DNA of 63,537 bases, the filler included, from Folioceros fuciformis (lineage: Eukaryota): assembly GCA_049999805.1 (NCBI GenBank). It is 9 parts of 9 records of this genome, joined end to end, with 100 filler letters (N's around TTAATTAATTAA, not from the genome) between each part and the next. Parts side by side here need not be neighbours in the genome. Positions count along the whole stretch, not along the records: positions 1 to 7,735 come from JBNGIO010001599.1; 8 more parts are not named here. One strand, given 5' to 3'. The notes beneath the pieces are model-generated. The model was not told the origin of the DNA. It searched no databases and worked only from the letters and a program-made list of their open reading frames with translations. The position numbers were made by a program, and so were the translations under genes. Below, piece after piece: positions 293 through 49,592 of this stretch. The first letter of the stretch is position 1, and each line of letters starts with the position of its first letter.

Positions 293-2211
293 ATGAGTAA
301 GCGGTACGCCATGGCGGACATGAAGGTGGCCATGGGGATTCTCCTGGCCTTAGGACTCCTAGTGCTTCTTCTCAACATGGCCAGCAACGTCTCGTTCGGC
401 CATCTCGCCTATCAGAAGCCCGAGGTCAGCCCCACTGCATCTTTCTCTTTCCCGCCTTCCCGCCTTCCGGCCCCCGGCCTCCACGCGCCTTCCACCTCTG
501 CCTCATTCCACCGCCTGCGGTTTTTGTAGATCATGGACAGACTCGGGGCCGCGGCCTATTGGTGGAACTCGCGGGCCGAAGACCTGGTGGCCGATGTGCC
601 TTCCGCGCGGAGGATAAATATGACCACGCTTTTCTCGGCTGGTCTGGCTCCCGCACTAGAGCCGTGTTGGAGCGACCGGATCCAGCGTAAGTTGTACGAA
701 ACGCTCTCATTTGGAGCTGAGCTGCTCTGCTCTTCGCTGCGCTCCCCTCCCCTCCGCTCCGAGGGTCACGTTCACATCCTGAGTCGCCTTTTGCTCTGAT
801 CCACAGAGAAGGCGAAACCTGCTGGAAACCGGGGTTTTGTGGTTGTCAAGATCTCCAATGGGCCTCACAACCATAAGTTGCAGGTAGCTTGTCACCGTCG
901 CTTCGTTTCTTCTCACGCTTTGCTGTGCCCTTGTGCCACGGCCTGTTTTCGAGGGAAGCATCGGAGTAGTTCTGATGAAAGCCTGCAGGTCGCGGATGCA
1001 GTGGTGGTGGCTGTCCAGCTCAATGCCACCTTGGTGATCCCCATTGTGAAGGAGGGTTTGCAAGAGCCTGGCGGGTACGGGGAGTTTTGGAATGCTTCTT
1101 TCTCTCGGATCAGTCAGCACTGGGTTCAGTTCCGCCAGGCTCAGATATGTTCTCGTGTGTGGCCTGATTGATTTGCAGGAAGTTTGAGGATATTTACAAC
1201 ATCCGACATTTCATTGCTGCTCTGGAGGGTGTGGTCCGGGTGGTTGGCCGCCTTCCCGCCACCCTCAATGTTACTAAGGAAAGCTTTACCAAAGTTCCCG
1301 TAAGGGTGACTTCTGACTACGTCGATGAGAATCTGAGGCCCATGCTGGAGCGGCTCCAGCTCATAGTCATCAGGGGTTTCACCACATCGTTAGGGTTTCA
1401 CGAGGTTGAGGATACCGCTATGCAAGCTGTACGCTGCCTAGTAATGTTTAACTCGTTGCGGTTCTCCTTCCCAGTGCAAAAATTAGGGGAGAGGGTCGTC
1501 AGTCGCATCAAGGAAGCTGGCGCGGAGTTCGGTGGACACTTCGTCGCTGTGGACCTTCGCCTTGATGCACTTCAACGCAGAGAGCGTAACACTACTTTTG
1601 GAGCATCACCTCTTGACTCTCGTGAAGTGAGGAAGAAGAAGTGTCTCTCTCCTGTGGAGGTTGGGCTTCTATTGCAGAACTTGGGGTTCGACAGGAGTAC
1701 TGCAATTTATCTTACCAACTCGCAGTGGAATGACATGCTTGATCCTTTACTGGAGATGTTTCCAAATACGCACACCAAGGTTTGCTCGTCTGTGCCTCTT
1801 TCTGCAAACAGGTCGTTTAGTCCCCCCTTGTATCCCTGATTTCTCATTCTCGGTGTCTTCTCATGCCATCTTTTGCAGGAATACAGTATGCCCTTCAACG
1901 AGGAGAATCAATTTCTGCTCACCGGCAAAACGCAGCTGGAGCTTGCCGTTGATCTGATAGTATGTACAGAAAGTGATGTATTTATCCCAGCTATTCCGGG
2001 CATGATGTATTCAACTGTAGCTGGAGAGCGTATTGCCGTGGGCAGAACAAATATCATCGTGCCCACTATGAAGACGACCATGTCATCGTCGTCCCCAGTG
2101 CTGACAGGTTCAACCTCAAAGTTTGTGTCCAAAAGGGATCATCCTGTCTATTCATGCTTCTGTAGCAGAAGTATACTCAGTGACAGGAACTACAGAACTC
2201 CTACGTCATGA
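293..2211 (+). CDS. O-fucosyltransferase family protein, MANNAN SYNTHESIS-RELATED (MSR)-like; multi-exon
   Basis: N-terminal TM anchor (MADMKVAMGILLALGLLVLLLNM). Exons encode NGPHNHKLQVADAVVVA, KFEDIYNIRHFIAALEGVVRVV, FVAVDLRLD, ESDVFIPAIPGMMYSTVAGERIA and HPVYSCFC. GT-AG introns. Confidence 0.88.
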
Positions 2212-5071: not shown

Positions 5072-7642
5072 TTATCCTAAAATCCCTGAAAGTCTATCAA
5101 TAAAACTTTCAATACAACTGAACAATTTGGCAATGGCCATCTCCAAAGACTGCACAAAAGCTTGTTCCTCTACTTCCGGATGATATAGATCCAGTTCCTC
5201 TTCTTCATAATCCAGCCCTGGGCAATTTCATAGCAGTGCAAGTTAATTACTGAACTTAAGATGAAAGATCACTTATTCGCTCTCAGATTAAATAACTCAA
5301 ATCAATCACTTGCATACCAGCTTCCTGGAAAGTAATAGTGATTCCTTTCTGAAGCTCCTTAATGATAGGTAGTAATTCCTCATCGCTTAAACCACATGAC
5401 GCAATCAAGTTTAAGAGATCCATCATTTCCTGCTCTCCAGGCGTACCAACTAGACCAGCCCGTGCTCTTGCCATTGCTTCAAGCTCAGCTTCTTCCTCTG
5501 CTATGGCCTGCATACGCAACATGAACAACACTTTGAGCTTACACAACACAGAACAAACATAAGCTAGTTTTAGTTTTCACGAAACAAACATGAAGGGCAT
5601 GGCACCTGAGAAAGTTGCAATAGATTAGCATAAAGTTGAGCATTTCTTTCCCGAGCTTGTAAAAGAGCAGGAAGAACGCCTTTAATGCTCCTTACTCGTA
5701 GCAAATGTTGTGTTTTGTGGAAAGCCTTGTATTCAATCAAAAGCCTAAACCTAATAGTAGTGGGTGTTTCATATTGACTAGCCAAGGCTGCTTCATCTTC
5801 AGGATCCTGTAGCATCAAAACATCTCAATTGTTTCATACATGTGTTCATTGGTATTATGCCATGTGCATATCACCTATCGTCCTCTTCCCACCTTACTAC
5901 CCATCTTACCTTTCTACGAATGGTTTCTTGAAGAGGACTTGCATCAGCATGAGACCATCCCCCTGTGTTTTGCCATCGATAATATGCTCGCTCACATTCC
6001 TCCATTTCCAATATCTCTGAACAACCACACTCAAAAAAAACCATGTACCATAAGGTGAAGTTTAACTTCTTCTTTCTTTCTTTCTTTCTTTTTTTTCTTG
6101 ATTTTTTTAAAAGTATATATGGTTAAATATGCATAATTGTTCCAAAGTTTGACTCATGCTAATTATACTCTGTACAAAGTTAGTTAACCTGAAATTATTC
6201 TTTGAATTTCATGCCTTTCTTCGTACATGGCATTGCACCATTCTAAATATTTATTTGTTTCTTTTTTGTTTGACTCCATGTCCCTTTCCATTTTAGCTTG
6301 TATGCTATCATAAATTCCTTGCTCAAAATGCAGCTTTTTCATCTCTTGTTTAAGAGCTTTATTATGCGAATTCACCATATTAAGATCATAATTAGCCTAG
6401 ATGACAAATTAAAAATGAAAATTCCACATGACATAGAGCACTTTGTATAATGTTCGATGTGAATATGTAAGCTTTGACAAGTGCAAGTGCAAGTGCAAGT
6501 GCAAAACCTCAAAAAGGTGGAATTCCAAAGTTGGGATAAAACCTTTAAACCTTTTCAACCCGATTCTCCAATATCTTAATCATAATGCAAGTATGATAAG
6601 CCATATCTCGAGCAGCATATCGGCCTCCCATTGCTGTCATGGCAGCTAACTCTTTGGCAGCGAATTGTTCAATAGTTGATTCCAAGTCGTTCAACTTTTT
6701 TGATTCAACTTCAATCATTTTTGTGAATTTATTTGCTTGTTCTTGCAATCTAGCAATTTCAGGTGCGTAATCCTACAAAACACATTGAACCCTAAACCCA
6801 AAACACATTTTGAATTCAATGTAAAGATAGAGATCCTAATAGGTTACTTGTATTGTGCTCACCACATGCCAGTATTCGTCTAGTTTTTGTTGTACAACTC
6901 TGTTGTCGCCTCTGAGGTTACATAACAGAGCATTTTGAAGCCGCATAATGGCCTCACTGTTTTGATGGAAAGTCCGTTCTCTATCATAGAGATTTCGATA
7001 CTTCTTATGCATGTCTTGCAGCTAAACGTATCACACCACTTTTTTTATTATTGTTCAAGAGTGTGAAAAAATAGTGTTAATCACAACGTGATTGCCCAAA
7101 AACTTACTTCTTTACAAGCTAGTAGATCTTCATCCATGCTTCTACTTGTAAGTGCATCTCCCTCTTGAAATGTTTTTGTCCTACTGATATCCAATGCTTT
7201 CTGAAACCACATTCATATGAGTCGTCTTAATGCAACATACATGTATTACAACGTAAGGAAATTCAACCAAGCACTTTCTTTTGGAAAAAATTCTCACCTG
7301 GGCCGCATTAAGGGCATCCAGCTCCGCCTCAACAATGGCAAGAATGTCGTGTGCTTTATCTGTAATAACTTGCAATGTTTCTTCAATTGGCTGACTTGCA
7401 ACAAGTATGCTTCCTTGTGAATGCCCAGTAGGATCGTAATTAGGATCTCCATCCATTAATTCATTTAAAATTTCCCTCGTGTCCGACACAACTTGGTCGA
7501 GTTGTCCTAATGTCCCAAGTCCAATCACAGCTTGTTCTAGTCCTTGTGCTTCGTCTCCTAATCGCCCATCACCTAAGTCCATGCCAGCAATAGCTTGTGC
7601 TACTGCTCCAACTATTTGGACAGCTCCTGCTGCTTGCTCCAT
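5072..7642 (-). CDS. Outer dynein arm docking complex subunit DC2 (ODA1 / CCDC114 / CCDC63 family) homolog; ~9 exons, intact frame
   Basis: Manual splicing gives an open frame of about 560 aa. Blocks LQDMHKKYRNL..., RLQEQANKFTKMIEVESKK, MGGRYAARD...IKILENRVEKANYDLNMVNSHNKALKQEMKKLHFEQGIYDSIQAKMERDM and YKAFHKTQ...NAQLYANL are collinear with the recalled DC2 pattern (MGG...IKLLENRLEKA...HNKQLRE.I..LRRER..F.SIQ..LEREL). Confidence 0.8.
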
Positions 7643-7735: not shown

Positions 7736-7835
7736 NNNNNNNNNNNNNNNNNNNNNNNNNNNNNNNNNNNNNNNNNNNNTTAATTAATTAANNNNNNNNN
7801 NNNNNNNNNNNNNNNNNNNNNNNNNNNNNNNNNNN
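7736..7835. other. Artificial contig linker. Also at 16709-16808, 24166-24265, 25751-25850, 35624-35723, 41388-41487, 60307-60406 and 61881-61980
   Basis: Identical 44N-TTAATTAATTAA-44N spacer with stop codons in all six frames. Confidence 0.98.
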
Positions 7836-9976: not shown

Positions 9977-10507
9977 TCTTATTCAATGTCTTGCAATTCT
10001 TCATATCAAGGTTGAAACCAAGAAACCTCATTGTGATACATCAAAATGTGCATATTGAATAGAAGTTTTAGAAAATTAAAATCATAATAATACTAAAATT
10101 CAACACTAGTATTCAGATCCCACGTAGGCAGTGGAGAAATGAAACCGGCTTCGCCCATACGGACAGGATTCAAGCATAAAAACATTAAATTACAGAACAG
10201 AAACCCTAAAATAATGTCCATTGGTTATTGAATAGAAACAGATATTTGCTTCTTGGAGTTACAGCAATATTAAATGAAATTTAAAACATAGCCTTTCGGG
10301 TGGTTGGATGTCGAGAGAGCCGTAGTTTGATGGCGAAGCGGGCGATCCATGTACAGAAATTCCTGCGTGTCCTCCATGGATGCCGCCATGCGGACCGATT
10401 AGAATGCAAGCAGATTGCAGCGATGGCAGAACACGGCGGAGAGCAGAAGGCGCTTTGAGCCGCAAACCTGGAATCGTATCTTGATATTGGTTGGAAGTTG
10501 AGTAGTC

Positions 10508-11965
10508 ATGTACAGGCAGACGAAGGAAGAGCTTAAGGTGTTGAGGGAAAGAGCGGATGCGGTAGAGAAAGAAGAACGCAGAAGGCTCATAGATGCTGCA
10601 AAGAAACGTGCTGCAGCTCAGAACGTTGATTATCCTACCTTTGCTGCCATGGTTAGATTTGGTTGTCTGAATGTTCCTGTTCTCCGTGCTGATATCATGC
10701 TTCACTATGGCTCGCCTCTTCGTCTAAATCCGCGGAGTGGGAATTCGTTGCCGGCACTCTTGTAGGTTTCAGTGGCTCACTTGAAGCCTATCCAGAGAAG
10801 GAGAGCGCATGAGGTGAAGCCAGCACGGAGCACATGGACACCTCGGGGATGGTCCTTGGACGAGGCCTTCTGCACGGACGAGGACAGGATGAGTCACAGT
10901 TTAGCTGATGATCCCTTGACTCTGAAAAGATGGCAAGCTTATGAGCGGGAGGCGACCTTGAAGCTCCTGCATACCATGGATAATGTCGCTGGTGATCCCA
11001 AGCCGCAGAAACACGTGCCTTTGACAAGTGATCAATTCATCAAGGAATGGAGAAAGCTTACGGGCAACATCAACGACAGGATGCGCCTGTTAAGAAAGAT
11101 GTCCCCTGATGACATCCCGCGCATTTTTAAGGTTGACCTTCCTTCCAGGATTCTGACAGAGATATTGGAGGCACTGCGGTGCTGGCAATTAAATGGAATG
11201 AGTTGTGCTCCTGTTGATCCAGAGGCGAGGAAAGGGGATGAATTCCAGGATGTGCACAATTCCAGCCTGAACGGCAGCGGGACGACATCCGGAAACATTC
11301 AAGCCGCTACAGACCTTACGAGCAAACAGCTTCCGCACGGAAGTCCATGTCCTCCTGATCTGGTCAAGACGTTGGCCAGCATCAGAATGCTCAGTGGCGG
11401 TTTGTCCTCGGAGGACCTGGCAAGTATGTACACGAGTGGTGAATCCGCGGGAGATCCTAAAGCTCTGCCAGCCTTTGTACATCTGCAAGGCCAGAACCCT
11501 CGAGGGAATAGTGACCTGGAGGCGTCAACAAGGGATGCTGCAGACGAGACTGCGAGCCAAATTGATTGGGTCACAAACGAACTAGCCAGCATTGCTGAAG
11601 GCCATCAGCACTCTGACTCGGAAGGCACACACCAAAGATTCTTACGCCTCATGAGAAATAGGAAGATGTTGTGGTTGCTGAGAATGCTGAACGCTCTCAC
11701 GAAATGTGGGAGATTCGACTTGGCTCTGAAGATGGGAAAGACGGGAAGGGCAACGGCTGCCTCAATTCTGGACCTCCTGGTGGCCGACATGTCCAGTGAC
11801 AGGGGTGAGGAAGGGAAAGAAAGCGACGAGGCTCCAAGTAAAAGAAGCTATTACGAATGTCGACCCAATTACGTGACGCCTGTAGTAGCTTTACCCATGG
11901 ACGATGCAGTCGTGGAATTGGATCTGCAGCAACTGAATTATCTACGGGCCGTTTACCAGCACTGA
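10508..11965 (+). CDS. CCDC103: CCDC103 / PR46b-like dynein attachment factor; exons 10508-10651 and 10766-11965
   Basis: Dynein_attach_N-like motif DAAKKRAAAQNVDYPTFAAM|VSVAHLKPI reconstituted across a GT-AG intron. RPAP3_C-like segments PLTSDQFIKEWRKL...IFKVDLPSRIL and LNALTKCGRFDLALKM. Confidence 0.82.
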
Positions 11966-12945: not shown

Positions 12946-13053
12946 CGGAGCATCAGTGATACCAGATTTCGTGTCAACAGGACCTACCTGAAAATTCAGA
13001 GATCAAGTGTGAAACATCCTCTGCCATCGGCCCTCATCACTATGCAAGTTCCG
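12946..13053 (-). ncRNA. Box C/D sno/scaRNA predicted to guide U2 snRNA 2'-O-methylation at plant C29 (human C28); snoR101-like
   Basis: Box C GTGATGA 13040-13034. 11-nt guide ACACTTGATCT (13010-13000) is the exact complement of U2 AGAUCAAGUGU and directly precedes D' CTGA (12999-12996). C'-like CTGTTGA; D box CTGA 12956-12953; terminal stem CGGA..GCA / TGC-TCCG. Resembles Arabidopsis snoR101 as recalled. Confidence 0.8.
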
Positions 13054-15519: not shown

Positions 15520-16808
15520 GGTGCGCGACAAGGGCGGCCCAGCAGTGAGATTCAGGTGGCAGGATCGCAGCTGGACGCAAATCTCCTCTGGGCGCCGTGT
15601 CGCTGCTACGGGAGGCGGGAGCCTGGCGCGAGAGGCGTGGCCCTAACCGGACCTTAACCCGCTCCTGGTTAGCTCACCCGCTCGGTCCCACTCTGCAGGA
15701 TGGGATGTCATAACGGTCGCTGGAATCCAGTCCCACGAAAGTTAAAAAGAGCTGGAATTTTAGCCATGCACATGGCACGATCTCACCACTGTTGCTCCTC
15801 TCCCTTGCTCGCCTGCCCGTCCATTTTCTACCACGTCAAACAACGATTTCAACCAACTCCTCCCCGCACCTTTGCCTTATATAGGCCAGCTGCCTCGCCG
15901 TTGGTGCTCTTGGGTCTACACCGCCTCCGAACTCCAGCTTGTAGACAGCTATGCCTAGGCCAAACAGGTTTGCTTTTGGGAGCCAAGAAGAGGCATTTTG
16001 TACGGGTAGCGGTAGCCTTTAGCAGGGAAAAGGGAGAAAAAAAAACCGTGGGGGTGGGTTTGTTTGCACTGCCTGCAGATCTGAGTTCTCTCCTGCAACA
16101 AACCCTACCAACTCCATGGAAGGGAGTTTGTGTGTATCAATCAATCAAGTTGGACAGAAAAAACCCCACCCAAAAAAAGAGGAAAATGAAAAGGTGAAGT
16201 AAAGTAGGTAGCAGAGGAGGATGAGAGGCGCGATGGAGGAGATGCGAGCCAGACCTGGGTGAACAGAACATGGAACACGCATCCTGACTATTGTACAAGA
16301 AGAAATGCTGGTGTGCGGGAGTCGCGGGAGCGTCGATAAATATCTAAACAAGGAATGCTGCATGTCTGTTTGACGGCAAGACAGGGGATGGGCGGGGACC
16401 TAACCGTGGTTAGGGTGGGACCCAGCGGGAGGGAGGCAGGACAGGGAGCGAGGGAGAGACAGGGCCAGGGAGCGAGCAAAACGCGCGAGCGGGGGAAGGC
16501 AGACACAGAGAAAGAGAGCAAGAGCAGGCACAAAGTTGCCTCTTCCTCACCCACACTCCCGGCACGCACCATCGTCACCCGCCAGCCACAGGCGGCACGC
16601 TACAGCCATCTCCGCCACCGCTGCACGGGAGGGGCCGGGGGAGCGTGTGGCAGGAGGGAAGGAGACGCAAGCGAGGAAAGGGAAGGAAGGAGGTAGGCAG
16701 GGCAAGGGNNNNNNNNNNNNNNNNNNNNNNNNNNNNNNNNNNNNNNNNNNNNTTAATTAATTAANNNNNNNNNNNNNNNNNNNNNNNNNNNNNNNNNNNN
16801 NNNNNNNN

Positions 16809-23170: not shown

Positions 23171-24265
23171 AGGTACTCACTCGCTCCCTCACTCACCTAG
23201 CGGCAGACCAGGGAACGCGCATTGTTAGCTAGTGATGGACCCGTCTGTGATGTCGAGATCTTGCATCTGGTGTTGGTGGTGTGGTCGGCCTACTACACAC
23301 ATAGATGGCTGGCTGGCCTTACAGACCAGATCCCCTCCCCACAGCTACATGGTGAGAAAGGGACGTTGTGGGTCACCTTTTAGCGTGTTGAATCTGGAGT
23401 GAGTTGTGACATCCAGCCCAGCCCAGACTGATGAGAGACATGCTGAACATACCGATTCCCCATCCGCGACTGACGAGGGTACGGCTCACGGAAGGGATGC
23501 CCGCCCATTTCTCCCTTGCGCAGCTGCAGCAGGAGTGGTGCGTGAGAATGGAAGGGCGAGGCGACCTGGCAAGTACAGCGACTCCATCCCCCCGCAGCAG
23601 AAGGTTCGGAGTAAGCGCACCCGACGCACCTGCTGCTGATGGTGGGGGGAGCAGAAGGACGGGCGCTGAGGAGACAAGAAGATGAGAACACTGGAAGACT
23701 GCTGTTGGTTAAGCGTATCACGTCAGGTAGAAAGTCGGTCAGAGGTGGAACTGGAGTCAGAAAAGCATCGCTGGGAGATTCAGCCATGGCGTGCTCCCAG
23801 GAGTCCAAGTTAGTGGACTGGACGAGCCGGCGGGAAAACATGAATCGGGAATCAAGATTATGTGTTCCTGAGGCGTCGCTGAGGACGGGGAGGGCGGGGG
23901 GTGTGGGACCAGGCCGGTGGTGGTCCGGGAAGCCCGAGTTCCCAGCCAGTGGTTTTTCCCCCCCGCGGGCCGTTGGGAACGGCCAGGTGGCCGTCCCTTG
24001 CCCCCGGATATTCAATGCTGGCAGGCGGAGTCAACTTGGCGAGCCCGTAAGTTGCTCCGAACATTCGCGCGATGCTTCTTCCCGGCCCGGCTACATCCAG
24101 TTCCACGGAAACGGGGGTGACCGGTCCACCGGCTGATGCAGGTGCAGGAGGAGACGGTTATACAGNNNNNNNNNNNNNNNNNNNNNNNNNNNNNNNNNNN
24201 NNNNNNNNNTTAATTAATTAANNNNNNNNNNNNNNNNNNNNNNNNNNNNNNNNNNNNNNNNNNNN

Positions 24266-25220
24266 GCTGAGCATCAACTTCACTCAGAATACTGCAGACA
24301 CCAACATGTACAGGCTGGCAGCAAGATCCTCCGTTGTACTCCTCGCCCTGTACGTGGACGACCTGATACTTGCCACAAACCACCACAACCTGTTAGCAAA
24401 AGTGAAGACACAGCTGCACAAGAGGTTCGACATGAAGGACATCGAAGAACTGAAATATTGCCTAGGCATCCAACTCCTACACGTACGAGATGCTGGGATC
24501 ATGTACATCCATTAAAGCAAGTACATCAACGAGATCCTACTGAAGTTTCATCTTGATCAGGCCAGACCCACCACTACTCCATATGCGGTGGGCACCAAGC
24601 TGACCCGGCAACAGAGCCCTCAGACACCTGGTGAGCTGAAAGACATGGAAGGCGTACCTTATAGGCACACTGTCGGCAGCCTGATCTTCGTCGCCAATTG
24701 GACCAGGCATGATATACAGTACTCAGGTAGTACTGTATCACAGTTCCTAGACAGCCCTGGGAGAGCGCACTGGACAGCAATGAAACGGATTTTCCGCTAC
24801 CTTAAGGGCAGAGCACACTACGGCCTAATGCATCAGAGAAGCGGAAAACAACAGCTCAACTTATCAGGCTATTCAGACGCGGACTGGGCATTTGACTCCG
24901 ACTCCAGACACAACATCTCATCCTACTACTTCCTGCTTGCATCCACAGCAGTCACCTGGAGCAGCAAGAAACAGGTCACCATCGCTCTCAGCTCCATTGA
25001 AGCTGAATACAAGTCACTAACGGAAGCAGCTAAAGAGGTAGAATGGGAGAGAGGGTTTCTTTCTGACCTTGGCCACCCGTAGATCGACCCGACTCCCATC
25101 CTATGCGACAACACCTCAGCCCTAGAGCTAGTAGTGAGGCTGACTTTCCACGCCAGAACAAAACACATAGACATACAACACCACTACATACAAGATATGG
25201 TGTCCATCACCAAGGTATCA
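24266..25220 (+). mobile_element. Ty1/copia RT-RNase H remnant with internal stops
   Basis: LYVDDLIL, PYRHTVGSL, GYSDADWA, WSSKKQVTIALSSIEAEY, CDNTSA, FHARTKHIDI; in-frame stops near 24515 and 25082. Confidence 0.95.
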
Positions 25221-25600: not shown

Positions 25601-26024
25601 GGATGGAGAATGCTGCCGTCGTCTCCAAGGCCAAGACCCAGTACCTCGATCAACCCGACCTTGTGCTCTAACTGTGTGTTTGGTGGTTTCTATCTACAGG
25701 ATCTGTGGCTAATTGCTTTTGCGGCGTTAGTGCACAACTGTAGCCATAGANNNNNNNNNNNNNNNNNNNNNNNNNNNNNNNNNNNNNNNNNNNNTTAATT
25801 AATTAANNNNNNNNNNNNNNNNNNNNNNNNNNNNNNNNNNNNNNNNNNNNGGGTGAGGCACTCGGGGAGCAGGAATGGGGGAGCTACTGACGTCCCACAG
25901 CCGGTTGGAACCGCCCACCCAGTTGGTGAGTTGGAATTTTGGTGGGTTTGTCTTGCCGTGCCATGGCATGGTATGGCGCATTCTGGTATGCTTGGGGTGG
26001 GTGTTCTGATGTATTCGTGTCCAG

Positions 26025-34341: not shown

Positions 34342-35723
34342 AACGCCGGGTGGATTTGGGTGAGGTGTGGATAGAAGTGTCGGCTTCCCAGTCCGCGGTA
34401 TGTAGCCATGTGTGGAGCTGTACGGTCTGGTGGCGGTAGGCAGAGCAGCACTTTGCAAGGCTGGCTGGAAGAACGGTCTGTGGTGTCTGGGGATGATGCA
34501 CATGATGGTAATGTGACGGAGAGGAAAGACGGCACGAATTCTGTCCTGCCACCGTAATGTCTAGTTTACTGGAGCTAGCCACATGGAGCACAAGGAGCAG
34601 TGCAAATGGCGGTGCGGCAAGTGTGCGTCTTGTTGTCTGTGGGGCTTGCCCTCGCATCGGGAGTCTGGCCTGGCCGCCATCGACTGTCCGCTTCCGTGTG
34701 GGCCAGTCACCAGTAAGGAACGCCAGCTCCTCTCTCTAAAGCCCGTATGCTAGAGGGAGGGGAAATCAATTTGCTGCCTCCATGGCCTCCTTTCTGACGC
34801 GAGCCACGGGCTGCGCTCGATGGCGTTGTTCCGTGCGGCCATGCACACTGCCTGCCTGCCTGCGGCGCAGCGGCAGCCACTCGCTCAGCTCGCTGCCTTG
34901 GCGCTCCTGTCGTGACTGTCGAGAGTGATGTCGAGCGAGCTCGAGTTCTCTTGTATACGGCACAGCGCAGGCGCAAATGGCTTCGTCTCCGTCTGACACC
35001 CCGCTGTGCACATTGTCAGTGGACGAGGAGGACGAGGTGCGTGAGTTTTAGGGCAGAAGGTCACATTCCGCAGTGCGCACGTCCCGACTGACTGGCACGC
35101 CCGCAAAGAAAAAAGCACATACAGATAAAAACACACGCAGGTGCCCGCTCAGCGTCCCGGCCTGTTCCTGCCCCTGCTAGCTAGTACCATGCAGATACGA
35201 GCGGCAGGGGGGGACAAGCATGCGATTGCCGCTGCCGCTGCCTCTACCGCTGCCGCTGCCGAGTCGTGGATTCCTGATACGCCTGCGACTCCCTGTCGCG
35301 CGGCGAGACACGAGACACGAGACACGAGACGCGAGATGCGAGATGCGAGACGCGTTCCGTTACCTGCAGCCGAGCTGAGTGGCCGAGTGGAGCTGCATCC
35401 AATACACAGTCCTGTGACCGAGACCGATGAGATGAAGTCCGGCAGTCGCGACAGCCCCGAGTCGCGTCGAGGAGTCGGGAGAGCGGCGGGGCCGTGACTG
35501 GCTGCCGCAGAGGTTGCGTTTCTCTGGAACCGGCGCGCGGGCTGCAGAGAGCGCCAATACGGGGATGGCGAGAAGTAAAGCGAACCAAATCGGCGCAAGG
35601 CAGGCAGGCAGGGAGGAAGGGGCNNNNNNNNNNNNNNNNNNNNNNNNNNNNNNNNNNNNNNNNNNNNTTAATTAATTAANNNNNNNNNNNNNNNNNNNNN
35701 NNNNNNNNNNNNNNNNNNNNNNN

Positions 35724-40368: not shown

Positions 40369-41487
40369 GTATGTAGGTGAGGTGGGCGGTGGATCGTACA
40401 CCAGATTACCAGAACAGGGCGGCCAGGAATGGCAAGTCGGGGCGTGACGGCTTCCCCGGGAAGTACAGTCTCACATGCAAGCTGGTCTAGTACAGCCAGG
40501 CTAATGAGAACCAATTTTAGGGCGGCCCGGCTGGGTTGGAGCCTGGGCCGTTTTAGGTCTGGGGCCTTGCGTGTAGGAGAAGGGAAAAAGCGTTGGCAGC
40601 TTGTGACTCGTTGCAACCAACTGAACAGGTAGTTGATGCCATCTCCATGCTGCAGAGAGCTCTCTGCTCTACGAAGCGTGGGGGGTAGGTTGTATGATTG
40701 CAGCACTATTGGGCCGGGCAGGGCAGTCGCTAGAGCCGGGTACTGTAAAGCATGCAGCTGTATGATTGATTGCCCACAGTTGCAGGTATCGACTTAGGAC
40801 AACCGCCTGGCGTAAAATCTTGGGCAAGTCGCGGTCACAGTAGTTTCACTGTTTCCATCACTGGCAACTCCTGCAAAGAAACGAGGGAGGGCCAATCAAG
40901 GAAGGCTTTATGATTGAGGCTTTGGCAAGGCAAGAGAGGGCCGGGCCGGGCAGGGCAATGCAAGGTTTCTGTAACCTACAGACACGCATAGGTACATACA
41001 TAGTTCTGTTTCTTATCATTTGGTTGGTACACATGTCCGGCACGGGACAATCCTATCCTGCATAAACACAAACCTCATCACCCCATGCTCCATCGGCGAC
41101 TGGTATGCTGCGATCACAAGCAAGCAAAGCAAGTTGTAACCCTAACCCCCGGAAGAGAGCGAATCAGAGGAAGTCCCTTGTCCTTGTGAAGGAAGGAAAG
41201 GCAACTGGGGAGCCTGCACACCTAGTCTGGAATCTTGGCAGGCATGCCTGCCCCGTGAATCACGCCATTCTTTTGTGTAACGAAAAAGGGCAGCAGAAAG
41301 GCAAGGCTCTCATGAAAAGGTGATGATTCAATCACAGAATGAGGGCAGGCTGTGGAAGCCATCACGGACATTGCAATAGGCGAAAGGNNNNNNNNNNNNN
41401 NNNNNNNNNNNNNNNNNNNNNNNNNNNNNNNTTAATTAATTAANNNNNNNNNNNNNNNNNNNNNNNNNNNNNNNNNNNNNNNNNNNN

Positions 41488-43583: not shown

Positions 43584-44633
43584 ACACGAAGTGCATGTTT
43601 GCTGACATGCAAGCCCAAGGATAAAATTTACGACGGTGCCAAATCTTGTCGCATCCTGGAGCATGTGCTGAAGCCGTGACCGGCTACTCCTATACTGCCG
43701 CGTACTCCCGGTGGTCCCCATCCCCACAGGTCAGGACCGAACCCTAGGTCGTAAAAAAGCTGACTTCCACTAACTCCCTGCTCGTTCTGTCCTCTTGGTC
43801 GGTCGAGATGTCTTGGGCTAAGCGTCGTAAAGGTTTCAGGCCCACCACGGCGATGAGACATATGCACAGAATTCGCGTCGGAAATGGTACATCTCTGAAT
43901 GGCCCCCCGCCAAGGGCACAGGAACAAGGAGATTCCAGTTCAGGCGTGACTTCCCGGCTGGACAGAAATATTGCTACTGGAGTCGCGGCAAGTCGTCTCA
44001 CGGCTTCATTGATTGTACTTTACCTCCCTGCCCTTGAGCTGTGTGTCATATTAATGGAAACTTGATGGCCACATAATCCGTGACCCGTGCACTGTAATAG
44101 CACTGCAGACAAAATCCGGAAGGCGAAGAAGGCTGGAGAGGCAGAAGGCACGAGACAGCCTGCAGTGGGGCCATATGAGACAACGCTTTCTTCCTGGCTA
44201 AAAGGAGCTCTGCCTGCCCTGCCCCCATTTCCTCCACAAACAAATGCATTGTGGGATCCGTGGCCACGGTACTTACCACGCTAACATTCCCTGACCTGCG
44301 GCAGCAACTCCTTTCCTCAAGCCCCAGGCCGAAGCACACAGAGACAGGTATGTATAGTGGTCTCGTCCCACCTCCGCCACCGTATTGGTCGCTCAGAATC
44401 ACGGGCTTTTCCTCCCATCCACTGTCCGTCTCTTTAACGACCAGGTGCGACAAGCAGTTCACACAAACACAGTCTGTGTTGCTTGGGTATACTTAGATCT
44501 TCAGGTGCATGCCCTTGAGTCTTCCAGCTGTTGGCGGAAGCCAATCCTGCTCCAACTCCGTGAGTTTGAACATCTCTCTCTGCCCTACTCGGGCCCTGCG
44601 ATCAATGGACTGTAAGGAGAAGGCTGCTGCTAT

Positions 44634-46586
44634 ATGTGCCGCATGACGGAGGCTGGAGGAAGGGCAGGCGACAAACAAACAGTGCAAGCGGCTATGGCAA
44701 CGAAGACGGAACAGCAGGCGATCCCGGCAGTGCAGCGAGGCGGCATCAAGGGGGCCCCGTCCCTCGCCATCCTCCCGGGCTCCACTATCCTGGCCATCAT
44801 CTCCCTGATCCAGTCCCCCTCCGACAGGAACCGAGTCTCCCAGGTGTGCCGCGCCTTTCGTGTCTGCGAGAGGCAGAGCCGCACCACCCTCTGCCTTCGA
44901 GCGATCCGCAGCGACATCTGGTTCCTCCCGCTTTGCTTCTCCAACGTCACAGACCTGGACCTGACCGCCATCATCCTGCTCCCAAGCCAGGCCCCGTTCC
45001 ACCTCCACACCGCCGAGCTCCACCGCCTCAGCTGCGCCTTCCCCAACCTCACCAGCCTCCGCGTCCCCGCCGCGAGCGACGCCTGCACCCGAGCCATAGC
45101 CTCCCAGTGGCCCGCTCTCCGCAAGCTCGCCTTCTCCCGCAACCCGCTCCCCCCGGCCCTGCTCCCCCGCCTCCGCACCGTGTTGCGTCACTTCCGTCGC
45201 CTCCAGGTCCTGTCCTCCGACAACCTCCTGATCCCGTCCCTTGCCCAGGGATTCCCTCACCGTGGCTGCCCCGCCCTACGCGCCCTCAACCTCTCTTCCT
45301 TCCTGCTCACCCTGGACCAGGAACTCGCCTTCCTGGCTCTCAAGTGCCCCAACCTCGAGAGCCTCTGCCTCACCCTCCACCCCGGCCGCCTCACGGGCGC
45401 CGGCATCCTGGCCCTGGCCCGCGCCTGCCCCACCCTCGCCACCCTTTCCGTCTGCATCGTCCCCGGCACGGACAACCATGCCGCCATCCTCTCCGCGCTC
45501 GCCGCGGCCTGCGGCGAGCTCCCCTCCCTCTCCCTCGACCTCTCCATGGACCAGGTTCCCGCGCTCGCGTCCGGCCCCAGGATGGAGCGCGTGCAGGACA
45601 TGGCCATCGGACTCCGCTCCCTCGTCGTCCTCTCCACCGACGCGGGCATGGCCGGGGTGGCCGCCTGCCCTAACCTCGCAGAGCTCACCTTCGGGTCGTG
45701 CGAGGGGCTCCGCGACGACCACCTGGTCGCCATAGCCCGCTCCTGCAAGTCCCTCTGCACTCTCCGCATCCTTCACTGCCTGGGGATCACGGACCGGGGC
45801 CTGGCGCGGATGTCTCGGCTCTCCACGTCCCTCACATCCCTCTCCCTGTGCTACCTCCGGCCCCGGGTGAGTGCCATCCTCGCCGCCGTCCGCCCTCTAA
45901 GCTCCACTGTGACAGCGCTCCGGGTGATGGGAGACAGCGGGGTGGACAGCCTCGCGGGGCTGACCTCCTGGCCGGTGCTCGCGCGACTGGAGATAACCAT
46001 GGCGAAGGAGCTCCCGGCCGTGGTTCTCCTGCAGGAACCGTGGCTCGTTGGGTGTCCCAAGCTGCAGCACCTGGCGCTCATGTTCCAAAACTGGTGCCCG
46101 TCGTCGCTGCACTTCCTGCGAAACTGTCCCTCGCTCACCTCGATTGCGCTCTCTTTCTCCGAGAGCCGGAGCCGGCAGACGACGCTGGAGCATTTGCGGG
46201 ACATCGCGCTGCTGCCCAGGCTGCTGGCGCTGTCCGTACATGTGTGTTCACAGGAGTGGCTGTCGAGGGAGGCGGGGAGGTGGCTGGCCAGGTGCCCGCA
46301 ACTGAAGGCGCTGGACATGTATTGGGCGCCCCGGGATGATGCGGCGTTCAAGGGGCCCAAGGCTGGCTTGCAACCTTTCCTGTTGGAGCTCTTATCTCTC
46401 AAGACGTTACGGCATGTCCAGATCCCGTGTGCGACCAGCGACGAGGACGATGTCAAGGCTTTCTACAAGAGCATCAGGTTGCACACCGTGAGCTCTTTGC
46501 TAAAATGCGCGTATAATTTGAAGCTGCAGGCGCCCAGAGGGAAGAGCTCCAAACTCACGCTCGTAAGTTCCAGAATATTGCGGTGA
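44634..46586 (+). CDS. Intronless F-box/LRR protein, divergent MAX2-like
   Basis: 650-aa GC-rich ORF. F-box LPGSTILAIISLI..SDRNRVSQVCRAF, then ERQSRTTLCLR..SDIWFLPLCFSNVTDLDL, RLSCAFPNLTSL and QWPALR, collinear with recalled MAX2 (ERSTRSHLTIR..RDLSLVPDCFRSISHLDL; RLKFCFP; QWPRIR). Cys-containing LRRs. Confidence 0.8.
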   Translation: MCRMTEAGGRAGDKQTVQAAMATKTEQQAIPAVQRGGIKGAPSLAILPGSTILAIISLIQSPSDRNRVSQVCRAFRVCERQSRTTLCLRAIRSDIWFLPLCFSNVTDLDLTAIILLPSQAPFHLHTAELHRLSCAFPNLTSLRVPAASDACTRAIASQWPALRKLAFSRNPLPPALLPRLRTVLRHFRRLQVLSSDNLLIPSLAQGFPHRGCPALRALNLSSFLLTLDQELAFLALKCPNLESLCLTLHPGRLTGAGILALARACPTLATLSVCIVPGTDNHAAILSALAAACGELPSLSLDLSMDQVPALASGPRMERVQDMAIGLRSLVVLSTDAGMAGVAACPNLAELTFGSCEGLRDDHLVAIARSCKSLCTLRILHCLGITDRGLARMSRLSTSLTSLSLCYLRPRVSAILAAVRPLSSTVTALRVMGDSGVDSLAGLTSWPVLARLEITMAKELPAVVLLQEPWLVGCPKLQHLALMFQNWCPSSLHFLRNCPSLTSIALSFSESRSRQTTLEHLRDIALLPRLLALSVHVCSQEWLSREAGRWLARCPQLKALDMYWAPRDDAAFKGPKAGLQPFLLELLSLKTLRHVQIPCATSDEDDVKAFYKSIRLHTVSSLLKCAYNLKLQAPRGKSSKLTLVSSRILR

Positions 46587-46938: not shown

Positions 46939-49592
46939 TTAGCTCTTGTTGTGCAGCATAGCGCGCACGCGGATCGGAAGCCCGTAAAGGCGAATGAAGC
47001 CCGCCGCATCAGCCTGGTTGTAGATCCCACTTCCTTCCTCGAATGAGGAGATGTCCTGGCTGTAGAGGCTGTAGGGACTCTCTCTGGTAGCCACTGAAGC
47101 TGAGCCTTTGTAGAGCTTCAGCTTGACGCTGCCTGTGGTTGTCTTCGTGATGTTCTCCATGAATGCATCGAGTGATTCTCTAAGAGGGTCGAACCATCTG
47201 CCTGCGTACACCAGCTCCGCGTACTTGATGGCCAGAGTGTCTTTTAGCTGCACCGTCTCCCTGTCCAGAGTCAGGGTTTCCAGTTCCCGGGCTGCCAGGG
47301 TGAGAATTGTGCCCCCTGGAGTCTCGTACACCCCCCGACTCTTCATGCCCACCAGCCTGTTTTCCACCATGTCTATGCGGCCGATTCCATGTCGCCCTCC
47401 GATTTCGTTAGCCTTGGCAAGGAGCTTGGCAGGGGACAGGTGTTCTCCGTTGATGGAGACTGGAACGCCTGCCTCAAGTCCGATCTCCACATATCTGATG
47501 GGAAGGGAAGGAAAGGGACACAAACCTTTTCAGCAAACATTCTGAGATAGAAGTGAGCGCAAGCAGATATGTCGAAGTCCGCAAACGCGCAACTGTTGAG
47601 CTTGCTTACTCTGGCTCATTAGGAGCGTCCTCCGGATCAACAGTCAGCACGTACATATCCTTATGGGGTTCGTTTGCAGGATCCTCCAGAATGTCACCCT
47701 ACGAAACTAGCAAACGTTACTGCCCAGAATCCGGAAGTTTCATTCAACTTGGAGCCAATGCAAGCAAACACCCGGCCATCAATTACCTCATGACTGATGT
47801 GCCACAAGTTTCGGTCCCTGCTGTAGATGGACTTCTTGGTTACTGGCACAGGCACGTTGAACTTCTTGGCATACTCGATGGCATCTTCCCTTCCTTTGAT
47901 GTCCCATTCCCGCCATGGAGCAACCACGTGCAGCTTCGGGTTCAGGGCGAAGAAGGTGAGCTCAAACCGCACCTAGCCGCACAAGGAGATAAACCCGATA
48001 GGAGAAGAGCGTTAAGGATGCAAAGGTCCATATATAAAGTTGACTATGCTAACAGGATTTGGGGTATTCACCAACCTGGTCATTCCCTTTCCCTGTACAT
48101 CCATGGGCAACAGCATCAGCCCCAACCTCCCTTGCTACATCCACCATAGCCTGCATGCAGACGAGATCACATCAACGTTATTCTTCAAGAATCCACCTTG
48201 TCAGCTCACCATGAACCATCACACTAACATTACATCGACAATGTAGACGATTACACCTTTGCAATGATAGGCCGGGCCATAGAAGTGCCAAGAAGGTACT
48301 TCCTCTCGTATACCGCTCCAGCTCGCAAGCAAGGGTAAATGTAGTCTTTGACAAATTCCTCCTGCAGATCATGAATCACCAGCTGGCTTGCGCCACTCGC
48401 TTTCGCTTTCGCTTCCAGACCATCTGTCTCCCCAACACCCTGTATTCGAGACATTCTCAGGGCGTAAGAAGTCCATGCAAACATTTCACAAGGCAGCAGC
48501 TCTATGCACAAATCCTGTAAATGTCACTGCAACCAAGTAAGCATAGAACGCCATGTAAGTATCTAGAAATGCACCCACGAACACACTTACTTGACCCACA
48601 TCAGCTGTAAAGCAAACCACCTCACAGCCATAGTTTTCCCTGATTAAGATTGCCATTGCTGTCAGAGAGCTTGTTGACAAATCGATCCTCGCAAAAAATA
48701 CACAGTAACTGACACAACAATGACAAGTACACGGGCTTAATCAGCCTCACCTCAGCCAAGGCACAATAACCGAAGTGTCCAGGCCACCACTGTACGCAAG
48801 AACAACTTTATTAAGCTTCCCTCGAATCCCTGCTGCTGCCTTGCTTGATGTCTGTTTCACATCGCCATCGGCAGCCAGCACTGCCCTAGTGCCTGGGAGA
48901 AGCGTAAAACCCACGGTTACATTAAGTCCATGATACGAAGTTAGCAAGCTGTCCATCCCAAAGTGTCAGGTCTGATGTCATATACTTTCTATATGTAAAC
49001 TCCAAAGTCCAAGTAGTCACCATATCCAGGAAACAAGGTACTCTATTTGTAAAACCCCGAAGTCCAAGGTCTTAAGAACTCATAAATATCTGAGCTATGG
49101 CGAACCCTATTGCACAAAGGCAAGTTCTCGAGTCTGTTTCCCGAGCTTCTTTCTACTCGCAAGGAAATATGAAACTCTGAAACTGCCCCACATATGCATG
49201 ATCCCGGAGGAGGAAAGACATACAAATACCTTGCACGGCAGTCTGCATCGCTTGCTTCGTTCCCCAGAGAGGCCAAACTTCGAGAGACTGGCCCCAGAAC
49301 TGCCCGAAAACAAAGCTCTGCTGGGTGGGCACAGGTACGTATACAATTAGCTCAGAATTGCAAGACTTTTAAGCATCGTATGCAGCCGACGCATTGACAG
49401 GCAATGAAACCAATCACGCATGCAACAGGCTTGGGAAAGCGGTAGCACAAGCGAGGCTGAGCGAGCGCGAAATTGGGTGGTAGGGAATACGAGTGAGTGA
49501 CGCCGAGAGGTAAAGCAGAGGGGGCCCCGAACATTGGCCTTCGCTCCAGCAAGGCCAGCATTGGCTCCCACACTGCCAGACAGAGCAGCCAT
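46939..49592 (-). CDS. ASS: Argininosuccinate synthase, plastidic; multi-exon
   Basis: [75 protein letters not shown]; transit-peptide first exon. Confidence 0.97.

What the first reader, a model, noticed from the sequence alone, without database searches (positions are those of the whole stretch)
5072..7642. Intact outer-dynein-arm docking-complex (DC2/ODA1-like) gene in a land plant
Seen: ~9 exons with canonical splice sites join into an uninterrupted ~560-aa coiled-coil protein, which the ORF track shows only as fragments. Known: the MGG...IKILENRVEKA...HNKALK...YDSIQAKMERD block is characteristic of Chlamydomonas DC2 and human CCDC114/CCDC63, which dock outer-arm dynein. Land-plant sperm axonemes are reported to lack outer arms and their heavy-chain genes. 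Inference: a retained, diverged docking subunit with an unrecognised ~115-aa acidic N-terminal exon and remodelled C-terminus may have an outer-arm-independent role in the axoneme or spermatid. I cannot tell whether this retention is already documented.
Basis: partly seen in the sequence, partly recalled or inferred. Interest (0 to 1): 0.75.

Follow-up and report, generated by a model that had tools for sequence, protein, structure and literature searches.

The report
Docking-complex gene kept without outer dynein
A plant with swimming sperm keeps an intact gene related to the protein that normally anchors outer dynein arms to flagella, although land plants are reported to lack those arms; only its microtubule-binding half still resembles the standard protein.

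Summary
On the minus strand, 7642..5072, nine GT-AG exons join into a 556-aa frame with no internal stop.

- **Family:** exon 5 alone passes Pfam ODAD1_CC (37.3 bits, cut-off 27). Exons 4 and 5 align in order to solved Chlamydomonas DC2.
- **Relatives:** full-length relatives exist in Selaginella (automatically named). Related genomic contigs also exist in metagenomes. They carry plant-like neighbour genes, and exons 3-5 have identical lengths.
- **Selection:** two of those contigs give dN/dS 0.18.
- **What is conserved:** residues 146-345 match 57 of 57 family loci. Residues 346-556 match only the 3 plant-type loci, and residues 1-145 match none.
- **Reading:** in Chlamydomonas the N-terminal half of DC2 lies in a microtubule cleft and the C-terminal half holds the dynein (PMC7817835). 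So the plant protein keeps the microtubule half and has replaced the dynein half.

Limits: the organism is inferred to be a non-seed land plant. Its genome is not held, so the absence of outer-arm genes rests on literature. No expression data were found. The acidic first exon has no support from relatives. This is a new variant of a known family, of moderate interest.

The parts
7298..7642 (-). Exon 1 (115 codons, ATG at 7642-7640). An acidic, Gly-rich N-terminal extension found in no relative.
   Evidence: Open frame of 168 codons and a GT donor. 0 of 57 loci and no Pfam family. Shuffle test.
7108..7200 (-). Exon 2 (31 codons), part of the unsupported N-terminal extension.
   Evidence: AG/GT sites, phase 0. 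No significant relative.
6863..7021 (-). Exon 3 (53 codons). Conserved similarity starts here, and canonical DC2-type proteins begin about here.
   Evidence: 22 of 53 residues identical to Selaginella. L008 has an exon of the same 159 nt. Canonical matches start at residues 144-147.
6551..6772 (-). Exon 4 (74 codons), a coiled-coil segment.
   Evidence: Aligns to Chlamydomonas DC2 residues 73-141. 29 of 74 identical to Selaginella. L008 exon has the same 222 nt.
6189..6396 (-). Exon 5 (69 codons + 1 nt), the start of the ODAD1_CC domain.
   Evidence: Pfam PF21773, 37.3 bits against a cut-off of 27, profile positions 19-79 of 287. PDB DC2-type chains. P0001 is 93% identical. L008 exon has the same 208 nt.
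5910..6016 (-). Exon 6 (2 nt + 35 codons). The plant-specific C-terminal half starts here.
   Evidence: 12 of 35 identical to Selaginella. Collinear match in L008.
5606..5806 (-). Exon 7 (67 codons), plant-specific.
   Evidence: Matches only L003/L008/L010 (44% over 54 aa). No canonical locus matches.
5318..5507 (-). Exon 8 (63 codons + 1 nt). Ends in an F-x-E-A-G motif shared by all three plant-type lineages.
   Evidence: Three-way alignment. The intron sits in the same codon phase in L008.
5072..5217 (-). Exon 9 (2 nt + 47 codons + TAA at 5074-5072).
7736..7835 (.). Artificial contig linker (N44 + TTAATTAATTAA + N44), 93 nt upstream of the ATG.
   Evidence: One of 8 identical linkers in the window.

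Best explanation
This is a real, selectively maintained gene of a non-seed land plant. [quoted passage not shown]

Shown: only the part that corresponds to roughly the first 210 residues of canonical DC2 is still recognisably conserved. The C-terminal half has been replaced by a sequence shared only among plant-type relatives.

[quoted passage not shown] I therefore infer that the plant protein still binds lengthwise along the A-tubule of the sperm axoneme. It would no longer hold an outer dynein arm, and its new C-terminal half would carry a plant-specific function there. The 146-residue N-terminal extension is peculiar to this lineage, if it is real.
For: Gene model
- 9 GT-AG exons give 556 aa with no internal stop.

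Family
- Exon 5 alone reaches ODAD1_CC at 37.3 bits, above the cut-off of 27.
- Exons 4 and 5 align in order to Chlamydomonas DC2 residues 73-141 and 147-204, and to the Tetrahymena docking protein 7moq_Z.
- The Selaginella orthologue P0010 hits 3 DC2-type chains (7moq_Z 3.1e-12, DC2 1.3e-4, 'distal DC2' 1e-3). It hits no DC1-type chain at E<=1.
- 26 of 30 nearest Atlas clusters are ODAD1_CC.

Orthologues
- Selaginella: 29.5% identity over 440 columns, covering exons 3-9.
- L003/L008/L010 have all of exons 3-9 in order. L008 gives a 431-aa GT-AG model.
- L008 is flanked by a GARS gene with an N-terminal extension and by a Myb_DNA-bind_4 gene.

Selection
- L008 against L003: 17 synonymous and 13 non-synonymous changes over 1239 nt, dN/dS 0.18, Fisher p 6e-6.
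- Exon divergence is 2.4% and intron divergence 3.7%.
- P0001 is 93% identical across exon 5, with unalignable flanks.

Division of the protein
- Residues 146-345 hit 57 of 57 loci.
- Residues 346-556 hit only the 3 plant-type loci. The best canonical score, 23 bits, lies inside the 0-27 bit range of 20 shuffles.
- Pfam matches only profile positions 3-86 of 287 in P0010. In 8 of 8 canonical ORFs it scores 183-281 bits, and the best stretch covers nearly the whole profile in 6 of the 8.

Structural meaning
- PMC7817835 (passages): the N-terminal half of DC1/DC2 occupies the A07/A08 cleft. The C-terminal halves contact the beta and gamma heavy-chain tails and reach the intermediate chains.

Premise
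- No outer-arm heavy chains were found in any land plant (PMC9237703). PMC11032487 says the same (passage).
Against: - No transcript evidence. No RNA run was listed, and the one run laid gave no cover.
- The organism's genome is not held, so the absence of outer-arm genes here is assumed from literature on other land plants.
- The taxon is inferred from one conserved exon. Best hits are Ceratopteris 84% and Diphasiastrum 82%, and none of the 120 listed hits exceeds 84%.
- No localisation or binding data exist. Microtubule binding is inferred from homology at about 30% identity.
- A DC1-like partner, which canonical DC2 needs, could not be looked for.
- The plant-type rows sit on very long branches (1.3-1.4 changes per column) with deviant composition. 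Their grouping in the tree (100/100) could owe something to long-branch attraction.
- A preprint on Physcomitrella (10.1101/728691, passages) describes 'clear outer dynein arms' in electron micrographs. This conflicts with the premise.
- The AlphaFold model of the Selaginella orthologue is poor in the C-terminal half (pLDDT mostly under 50).
Confidence: 0.6

Rival explanations
1. The protein has left the axoneme. Its microtubule-binding coiled coil is used elsewhere in the spermatid, for example on the spline or multilayered-structure microtubules or at the basal bodies.
For: The dynein-contacting half is gone. A plant-specific C-terminal half is conserved: 25 of 211 positions are invariant in three lineages. 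Nothing here shows where the protein sits.
Against: The conserved part is the part that fits the doublet A07/A08 cleft in Chlamydomonas. All named or inferred holders are plants with flagellate sperm, but the survey is small.
Confidence: 0.2
2. It is an ordinary docking subunit. This organism, or land plants more widely, still has some form of outer arm that genome surveys have missed.
For: The Physcomitrella preprint labels outer dynein arms in micrographs. This genome could not be searched.
Against: No outer-arm heavy chains were found in any land plant surveyed. The half of DC2 that touches the heavy-chain tails has no counterpart here, in 0 of 54 canonical loci. ODA8 and ODA10 orthologues are reported absent from Physcomitrella (PMC4361367, PMC3842995).
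Confidence: 0.08
3. It is a relic drifting towards loss after the outer arms disappeared, still intact by chance.
For: Long branches and weak Pfam scores: 37-47 bits, against 95-111 bits for canonical fragments over the same positions.
Against: Frames are intact in the window, Selaginella, L008 and L003. dN/dS is 0.18. The plant-specific C-terminal half is conserved between lineages, 39% between the window and L008. Intron positions are kept.
Confidence: 0.04
4. The contig is not from the plant but from an alga or protist contaminating a fragmentary assembly.
For: The window is a chain of short contigs. The gene's GC3 is 0.30, unlike other ORFs in the window at 0.39-0.85.
Against: The same contig carries an O-fucosyltransferase gene. 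The best full-length relative is Selaginella's, and the C-terminal half matches only plant-type loci.
Confidence: 0.03

Closest known systems
[quoted passage not shown]
   Same: Similarity runs in order over DC2 residues ~31-204. This falls in the half reported to lie in the A07/A08 cleft. Both have long helices interrupted at a conserved Gly-Gly.
   Different: There is no detectable similarity after about residue 210, the half that contacts the dynein tails. The window adds a 146-aa N-terminal extension. No outer arm is reported in land plants.
Animal ODAD1 (CCDC114) and CCDC63
   Same: Same Pfam family, ODAD1_CC. Exon 5 aligns to CCDC63 residues 172-226 at E 0.26. A profile that includes canonical fragments reaches ODAD1 and CCDC63.
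   Different: Much weaker similarity than to protist or algal members. Animal proteins match the whole 287-position domain and work with ODAD2-5.
Selaginella moellendorffii EFJ22880.1 / EFJ30763.1 (UniProt D8RYC7 / D8RBA4), automatically named 'ODAD1 central coiled coil region domain-containing protein'
   Same: Full-length orthologue of exons 3-9, including the plant-specific C-terminal half.
   Different: Only 25-37% identical. Its annotated form lacks the window's exons 1-2. I found no study of it.
Chlamydomonas ODA5 and ODA10 / CCDC151 (ODAD3), DC1
   Same: Related coiled-coil proteins of outer-arm assembly. PMC3842995 calls ODA5 a chlorophyte duplicate of ODA1.
   Different: P0010 finds no DC1-type chain at E<=1. 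ODA10 orthologues are reported absent from Physcomitrella. ODA5 could not be compared, because no reference sequence was at hand.

Membership tests
ODAD1/DC2 family (Pfam PF21773 ODAD1_CC) | Sequence match to the family profile above Pfam's gathering score | tested here: met
   Exon 5 alone scores 37.3 bits against a cut-off of 27. Orthologues: P0010 47.1 bits, L008 exon 5 38.9 bits.
ODAD1/DC2 family (Pfam PF21773 ODAD1_CC) | Match along the whole central coiled coil (profile 1-287), as in canonical members | tested here: not met
   Only profile positions 19-79 (window exon 5) or 3-86 (P0010) match. Exons 6-9 give no hit at E<=1. All 8 canonical ORFs tested score 183-281 bits, and the best stretch covers nearly the whole profile in 6 of them.
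ODAD1/DC2 family (Pfam PF21773 ODAD1_CC) | N-terminal ~200 residues align in order with solved DC2-type rather than DC1/ODAD3-type chains | tested here: met
   DC2-type chains only at E<=1.
Outer-dynein-arm docking complex (functional) | C-terminal half that contacts the outer-arm heavy-chain tails and intermediate chains | tested here: not met
   Residues 346-556 match 0 of 54 canonical loci (best 23 bits, within shuffle range) and only the 3 plant-type loci.
Outer-dynein-arm docking complex (functional) | Heterodimer with a DC1/ODAD3 partner | not testable with these tools
   No genome is held for this window.
Outer-dynein-arm docking complex (functional) | Sits on doublet protofilaments A07/A08 with 24-nm spacing | not testable with these tools
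   Needs localisation or cryo-ET. Inferred only from homology to the region described in PMC7817835.
Outer-dynein-arm docking complex (functional) | Occurs together with outer-arm heavy and intermediate chain genes | not testable with these tools
   Genome not held. Literature reports none in land plants.
ODA5 (Chlamydomonas accessory protein) | Groups with ODA5 rather than ODA1 in a tree with named references | not tested
   No named reference sequences could be fetched. PMC3842995 reports no clear ODA5 orthologue beyond Volvox.

The most novel reading that the evidence does not exclude
Land-plant sperm axonemes keep the outer-arm docking site occupied. A plant-type DC2 still lines the A07/A08 cleft, and its new C-terminal half builds or recruits a non-dynein projection where the outer arm used to sit. 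That could explain two things. Some micrographs of moss sperm are read as showing outer arms although no outer-arm heavy-chain genes exist. An old experiment also reports binding of Tetrahymena dynein to Marsilea axonemes that lack outer arms; I saw only that paper's title.
Probability: 0.2. Interest if true: 0.7.

Novelty: new variant of a known kind. Interest (0 to 1): 0.5.

Why it matters
Land plants are the standard natural example of a motile axoneme without outer dynein arms. A docking subunit that survives the loss of its cargo would show that the docking complex has a role of its own on the doublet microtubule. Here the microtubule-binding half is kept under purifying selection and the dynein-binding half is exchanged.

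It also gives a direct handle for asking what occupies the outer-arm site in plant sperm: a gene that can be knocked out or tagged in Physcomitrium or Marchantia. The split between the conserved and the replaced half is a natural dissection of DC2 into its two functions.

Tried and rejected
- **Word-indexed protein searches.** The search with exon 5 against longer proteins found nothing. With alignment A2 it returned only P0005 and P0001 among 8000 candidates scored. No named canonical sequences were obtained, so the DC2 / ODA5 / ODA10 question could not be settled by a tree.
- **Representative search.** It gave 7 hits at E<=0.001. One, P0002, is a TPR repeat protein and probably spurious.
- **Own genome.** Not held.
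- **Expression.** No RNA holder was listed. The single run of the same species label gave no cover.
- **Complex prediction.** Two copies of residues 37-240 of the Selaginella orthologue: no support, score 0.03 against a mark of 0.32. No conclusion drawn.
- **AlphaFold.** The model of the Selaginella orthologue has mean pLDDT 58 and pTM 0.23. It was too poor for a fold search, so none was run.
- **Heptad count.** My own crude count was uninformative.
- **Plus strand.** The 5 longest plus-strand ORFs under the gene have no Pfam family.
- **Earlier findings of this scan.** Nothing by place, words or sequence.
- **Papers not held.** Hodges et al. 2012, Hyams 1985 and the id I recalled for Merchant et al. 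2007. They may bear on whether the retention is documented.
- **Literature searches.** Ten word searches were run. One search was badly designed and uninformative. Of those aimed at docking complex plus land plants, none led to a discussion of docking-complex retention in the listings and passages I read.
Full report
**The observation**

The finding's coordinates are the two ends of a minus-strand gene. Reading the sequence and the stop-to-stop frames, I placed nine exons: 7642-7298, 7200-7108, 7021-6863, 6772-6551, 6396-6189, 6016-5910, 5806-5606, 5507-5318 and 5217-5072. Each has an AG acceptor and a GT donor. Joined, they give 1671 nt, that is 556 codons and a TAA, with no internal stop. 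The eight introns are 86-172 nt.

Two qualifications apply.
- The window is not one stretch of chromosome. It is nine contigs joined by identical 100-nt linkers (N44, TTAATTAATTAA, N44). The gene's ATG lies 93 nt from the end of the first contig, so further 5' exons cannot be excluded.
- Exons 1 and 2 (146 residues; exon 1 has 20 acidic and 3 basic residues) have no relative anywhere I could look. Their support is limited to three things. The frame is open for 168 codons, which 8 of 1000 shuffles of the 2.7-kb region reach and 0 of 1000 local shuffles reach. The splicing is frame-consistent. GC3 is 0.30, like the rest of the gene.

**What family it is**

- Of nine exon-bearing frames scanned against Pfam, only exon 5 gave a hit above threshold: ODAD1_CC (PF21773), 37.3 bits against a cut-off of 27, profile positions 19-79 of 287.
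- Against solved structures, exon 5 finds the Tetrahymena docking-complex protein 7moq_Z (E 3.1e-4), Chlamydomonas DC2 residues 147-204 (E 3.8e-3) and mouse CCDC63 (E 0.26). Exon 4 finds DC2 residues 73-141 (E 0.02). The two exons therefore align to DC2 in order.
- An exhaustive phmmer search with exon 5 over 1.84 billion representatives gave 7 hits at E<=0.001.
- Among those hits is a 96-aa fragment, P0001, that is 93% identical. Its flanks do not align with the window's introns.
- The same search also found Selaginella moellendorffii EFJ22880.1 (P0005). Its allelic or duplicate form is EFJ30763.1 (P0010). UniProt names both 'ODAD1 central coiled coil region domain-containing protein'.

**Relatives of the whole protein**

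In a local BLAST the spliced model aligns to the Selaginella protein over residues 140-551 (29.5% of 440 columns). Identity by exon is 22/53, 29/74, 21/70, 12/35, 16/56, 18/59 and 10/40 for exons 3 to 9, and nothing for exons 1-2.

A pattern scan of metagenome contigs gave 57 loci that encode relatives. Three of them are genomic contigs with the plant-type gene: L003, L008 and L010. L008 and L010 are 99.98% identical, and L003 is 94.7% identical to L008.
- Exons 3, 4 and 5 have exactly the window's lengths (159, 222, 208 nt).
- All of exons 3-9 are present in order.
- L008 gives a 431-aa model with AG/GT at every junction.
- L008 is flanked by a phosphoribosylglycinamide synthetase gene with an N-terminal extension and by a Myb_DNA-bind_4 gene. 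I take this as plant-like gene content.

**Selection**

Over 1239 nt of confidently placed exon sequence, L008 and L003 differ by 17 synonymous and 13 non-synonymous changes. That gives dS 0.073, dN 0.013 and dN/dS 0.18, with Fisher p 6e-6. Exons differ at 2.4% of sites and introns at 3.7%, plus gaps. Neither copy has a stop. The gene is therefore under purifying selection in at least that lineage.

**Which part is conserved**

I split the model into three parts and searched each against the 57 loci.

| Part of the model | Exons | Loci matched at E<=1e-3 |
|---|---|---|
| Residues 146-345 | 3-5 | 57 of 57 |
| Residues 346-556 | 6-9 | 3 of 57 (the plant-type loci only) |
| Residues 1-145 | 1-2 | 0 of 57 |

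- For residues 346-556 the best canonical score is 23 bits. That lies inside the 0-27 bit range of 20 shuffled queries.
- Pfam agrees. The Selaginella orthologue matches only profile positions 3-86 of 287, at 47 bits.
- By contrast, 8 of 8 canonical open reading frames taken from the loci score 183-281 bits. The best stretch covers nearly the whole profile in 6 of them, and two match in two stretches.
- Within the plant-type proteins the C-terminal half is conserved. Window to L008 is 70 of 180 aligned positions, window to Selaginella 48 of 191, and 25 of 211 positions are invariant in all three. These include an A-Y-x-x-W stretch and an F-x-E-A-G motif at the end of exon 8.
- In a tree of the conserved part, the four plant-type rows form one side of a branch with 100/100 support.
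- The tree has 30 rows. They comprise 26 canonical rows and the 4 plant-type rows.
- Of the 54 canonical loci, 30 covered at least 150 residues and 24 shorter ones were dropped. Four identical rows were then removed. L010 and P0005 were left out as near-copies.
- The plant-type branches are very long (1.3-1.4 changes per column). The tool warns of long-branch and composition effects.

**How it most likely works**

Walton et al. 2021 (PMC7817835; passages read) report two things about Chlamydomonas.
- The C-terminal halves rise from the surface, pass between the tails of the beta and gamma heavy chains, and reach the intermediate chains.

The stretch conserved in the plant proteins aligns to DC2 residues ~31-204 of 552, which is inside the microtubule-bound half. 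The replaced stretch corresponds to the dynein-contacting half. The AlphaFold model of the Selaginella orthologue shows two long helices, 30-136 and 141-237 (pLDDT mostly 60-89), broken at the conserved Gly-Gly. It is followed by a poorly predicted, interrupted helical C-terminal half.

- **Shown:** homology, the split in conservation, and purifying selection.
- **Inferred:** the protein still lies along the A-tubule of the sperm axoneme and uses its new half for something other than holding an outer arm.
- **Unknown:** whether it pairs with itself or with a DC1-like partner.

**The premise**

- Lucas & Geisler 2022 (PMC9237703; part 1 of 2 of the text read) found no outer-arm heavy chains in any land plant. 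They did find beta- and gamma-like sequences in Chara and Klebsormidium.
- A 2024 Marchantia paper repeats that outer arms and their sequences are absent (PMC11032487, passage).
- ODA10 and ODA8 orthologues are reported absent from Physcomitrella (PMC3842995, PMC4361367; passages).
- Against this, the preprint 10.1101/728691 describes 'clear outer dynein arms' in Physcomitrella micrographs (passages). I cannot resolve this conflict.
- For the organism of this window nothing could be tested, because no genome is held.

**The organism**

- The argininosuccinate synthase exon at 46942-47529 has its best matches in ferns and lycophytes: Ceratopteris 84%, Diphasiastrum 82%, Adiantum 80-82%.
- None of the 120 hits listed, out of 7996 scored, exceeds 84%, although seed plants are densely represented.
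- A plant snoRNA family (snoR101) is present.
- The gene's C-terminal half is closer to L008's (39%) than to Selaginella's (25%).
- I infer a non-seed land plant, lineage unresolved.

**Is it known?**

The gene is on record but, as far as I could see, not discussed.
- The Selaginella proteins carry an automatic ODAD1_CC name.
- Supplemental Table 1 of Desai et al. 2015 lists the top BLASTp hit to Chlamydomonas DC2 as 2E-04 in Selaginella and 5E-10 in Physcomitrella. The main text says only that DC2 does not follow the ODA8/ODA16 pattern. The colour coding that marks orthologue calls is lost in the text copy.
- Seven of my ten word searches of the held library were aimed at docking complex plus land plants. 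None led to a discussion of docking-complex retention in the listings and passages I read. In one search neither of the two papers returned holds 'docking complex'.
- Hodges et al. [quoted passage not shown] Either may bear on the point.

**Verdict**

This is a real gene and a diverged member of the ODAD1/DC2 sequence family. It is not a canonical docking subunit, because the dynein-contacting half is not met. I rate it a new variant of a known kind, of moderate interest. Identification of the gene and its family is about 0.9 likely. The proposed arm-independent role on the A-tubule is about 0.5 to 0.6.

Noticed in passing
window 7736-7835, 16709-16808, 24166-24265, 25751-25850, 35624-35723, 41388-41487, 60307-60406, 61881-61980: Eight identical 100-nt linkers (N44 + TTAATTAATTAA + N44) join nine contigs of 1.5-18.8 kb. 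Neighbourhood across a linker is therefore not evidence of linkage.
   Followed up: yes
window 10502-11965 (+), second contig: A CCDC103 / dynein-attachment-factor-like gene. The upstream ORF gives Dynein_attach_N at 20.4 bits, below the cut-off of 27. The main ORF gives RPAP3_C at 50.8 bits for profile positions 2-55 and a weak 14.4 bits for 66-86, so about 190 residues are inserted inside the domain. The nearest Atlas clusters are CCDC103-like (score 0.92). It is a second axonemal-dynein-related gene in the same window.
   Followed up: partly
window 5072-7642 compared with other ORFs: The gene is AT-rich at third codon positions (GC3 0.19-0.43 per exon, about 0.30 overall). Other ORFs in the window have GC3 of 0.39-0.85, including 0.57 for the O-FucT gene on the same contig. 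GC drops from about 0.5 to about 0.38 at ~5000. Unexplained; it may reflect narrow expression.
   Followed up: partly
window 6478-6505, intron 4: A short hexanucleotide microsatellite, (GCAAGT) repeated about four times, seen in the sequence.
   Followed up: no
window 12949-13015 (-): snoR101 C/D-box snoRNA, 46.1 bits against a gathering score of 40.
   Followed up: no
window 1168-2208 (+): GDP-fucose protein O-fucosyltransferase gene (PF10250, 90.8 bits) on the same contig as the finding.
   Followed up: no
window 44616-46583 (+): A 656-aa single-exon ORF with a weak F-box_5 hit (25.6 bits, cut-off 25.5) and very high GC3 of 0.85.
   Followed up: no
window 24516-25079 (+): By eye this ORF looks like a Ty1/copia-type polyprotein fragment, but Pfam gave no family at E<=0.001. 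The label is my recollection only.
   Followed up: partly
L008 6481-7155: In the plant-type metagenome orthologue, exon 6 is longer (164 nt against 107) and exon 7 longer (231 against 201) than in the window. This adds about 30 residues between the conserved halves.
   Followed up: partly
P0004 / P0009: Two short database proteins are gene calls that read from exon 5 of the L008-type gene into its flanking introns. P0009 is named 'hypothetical protein' and P0004 carries no name. Prokaryote-style gene calling on eukaryotic contigs hides this family in protein databases.
   Followed up: partly
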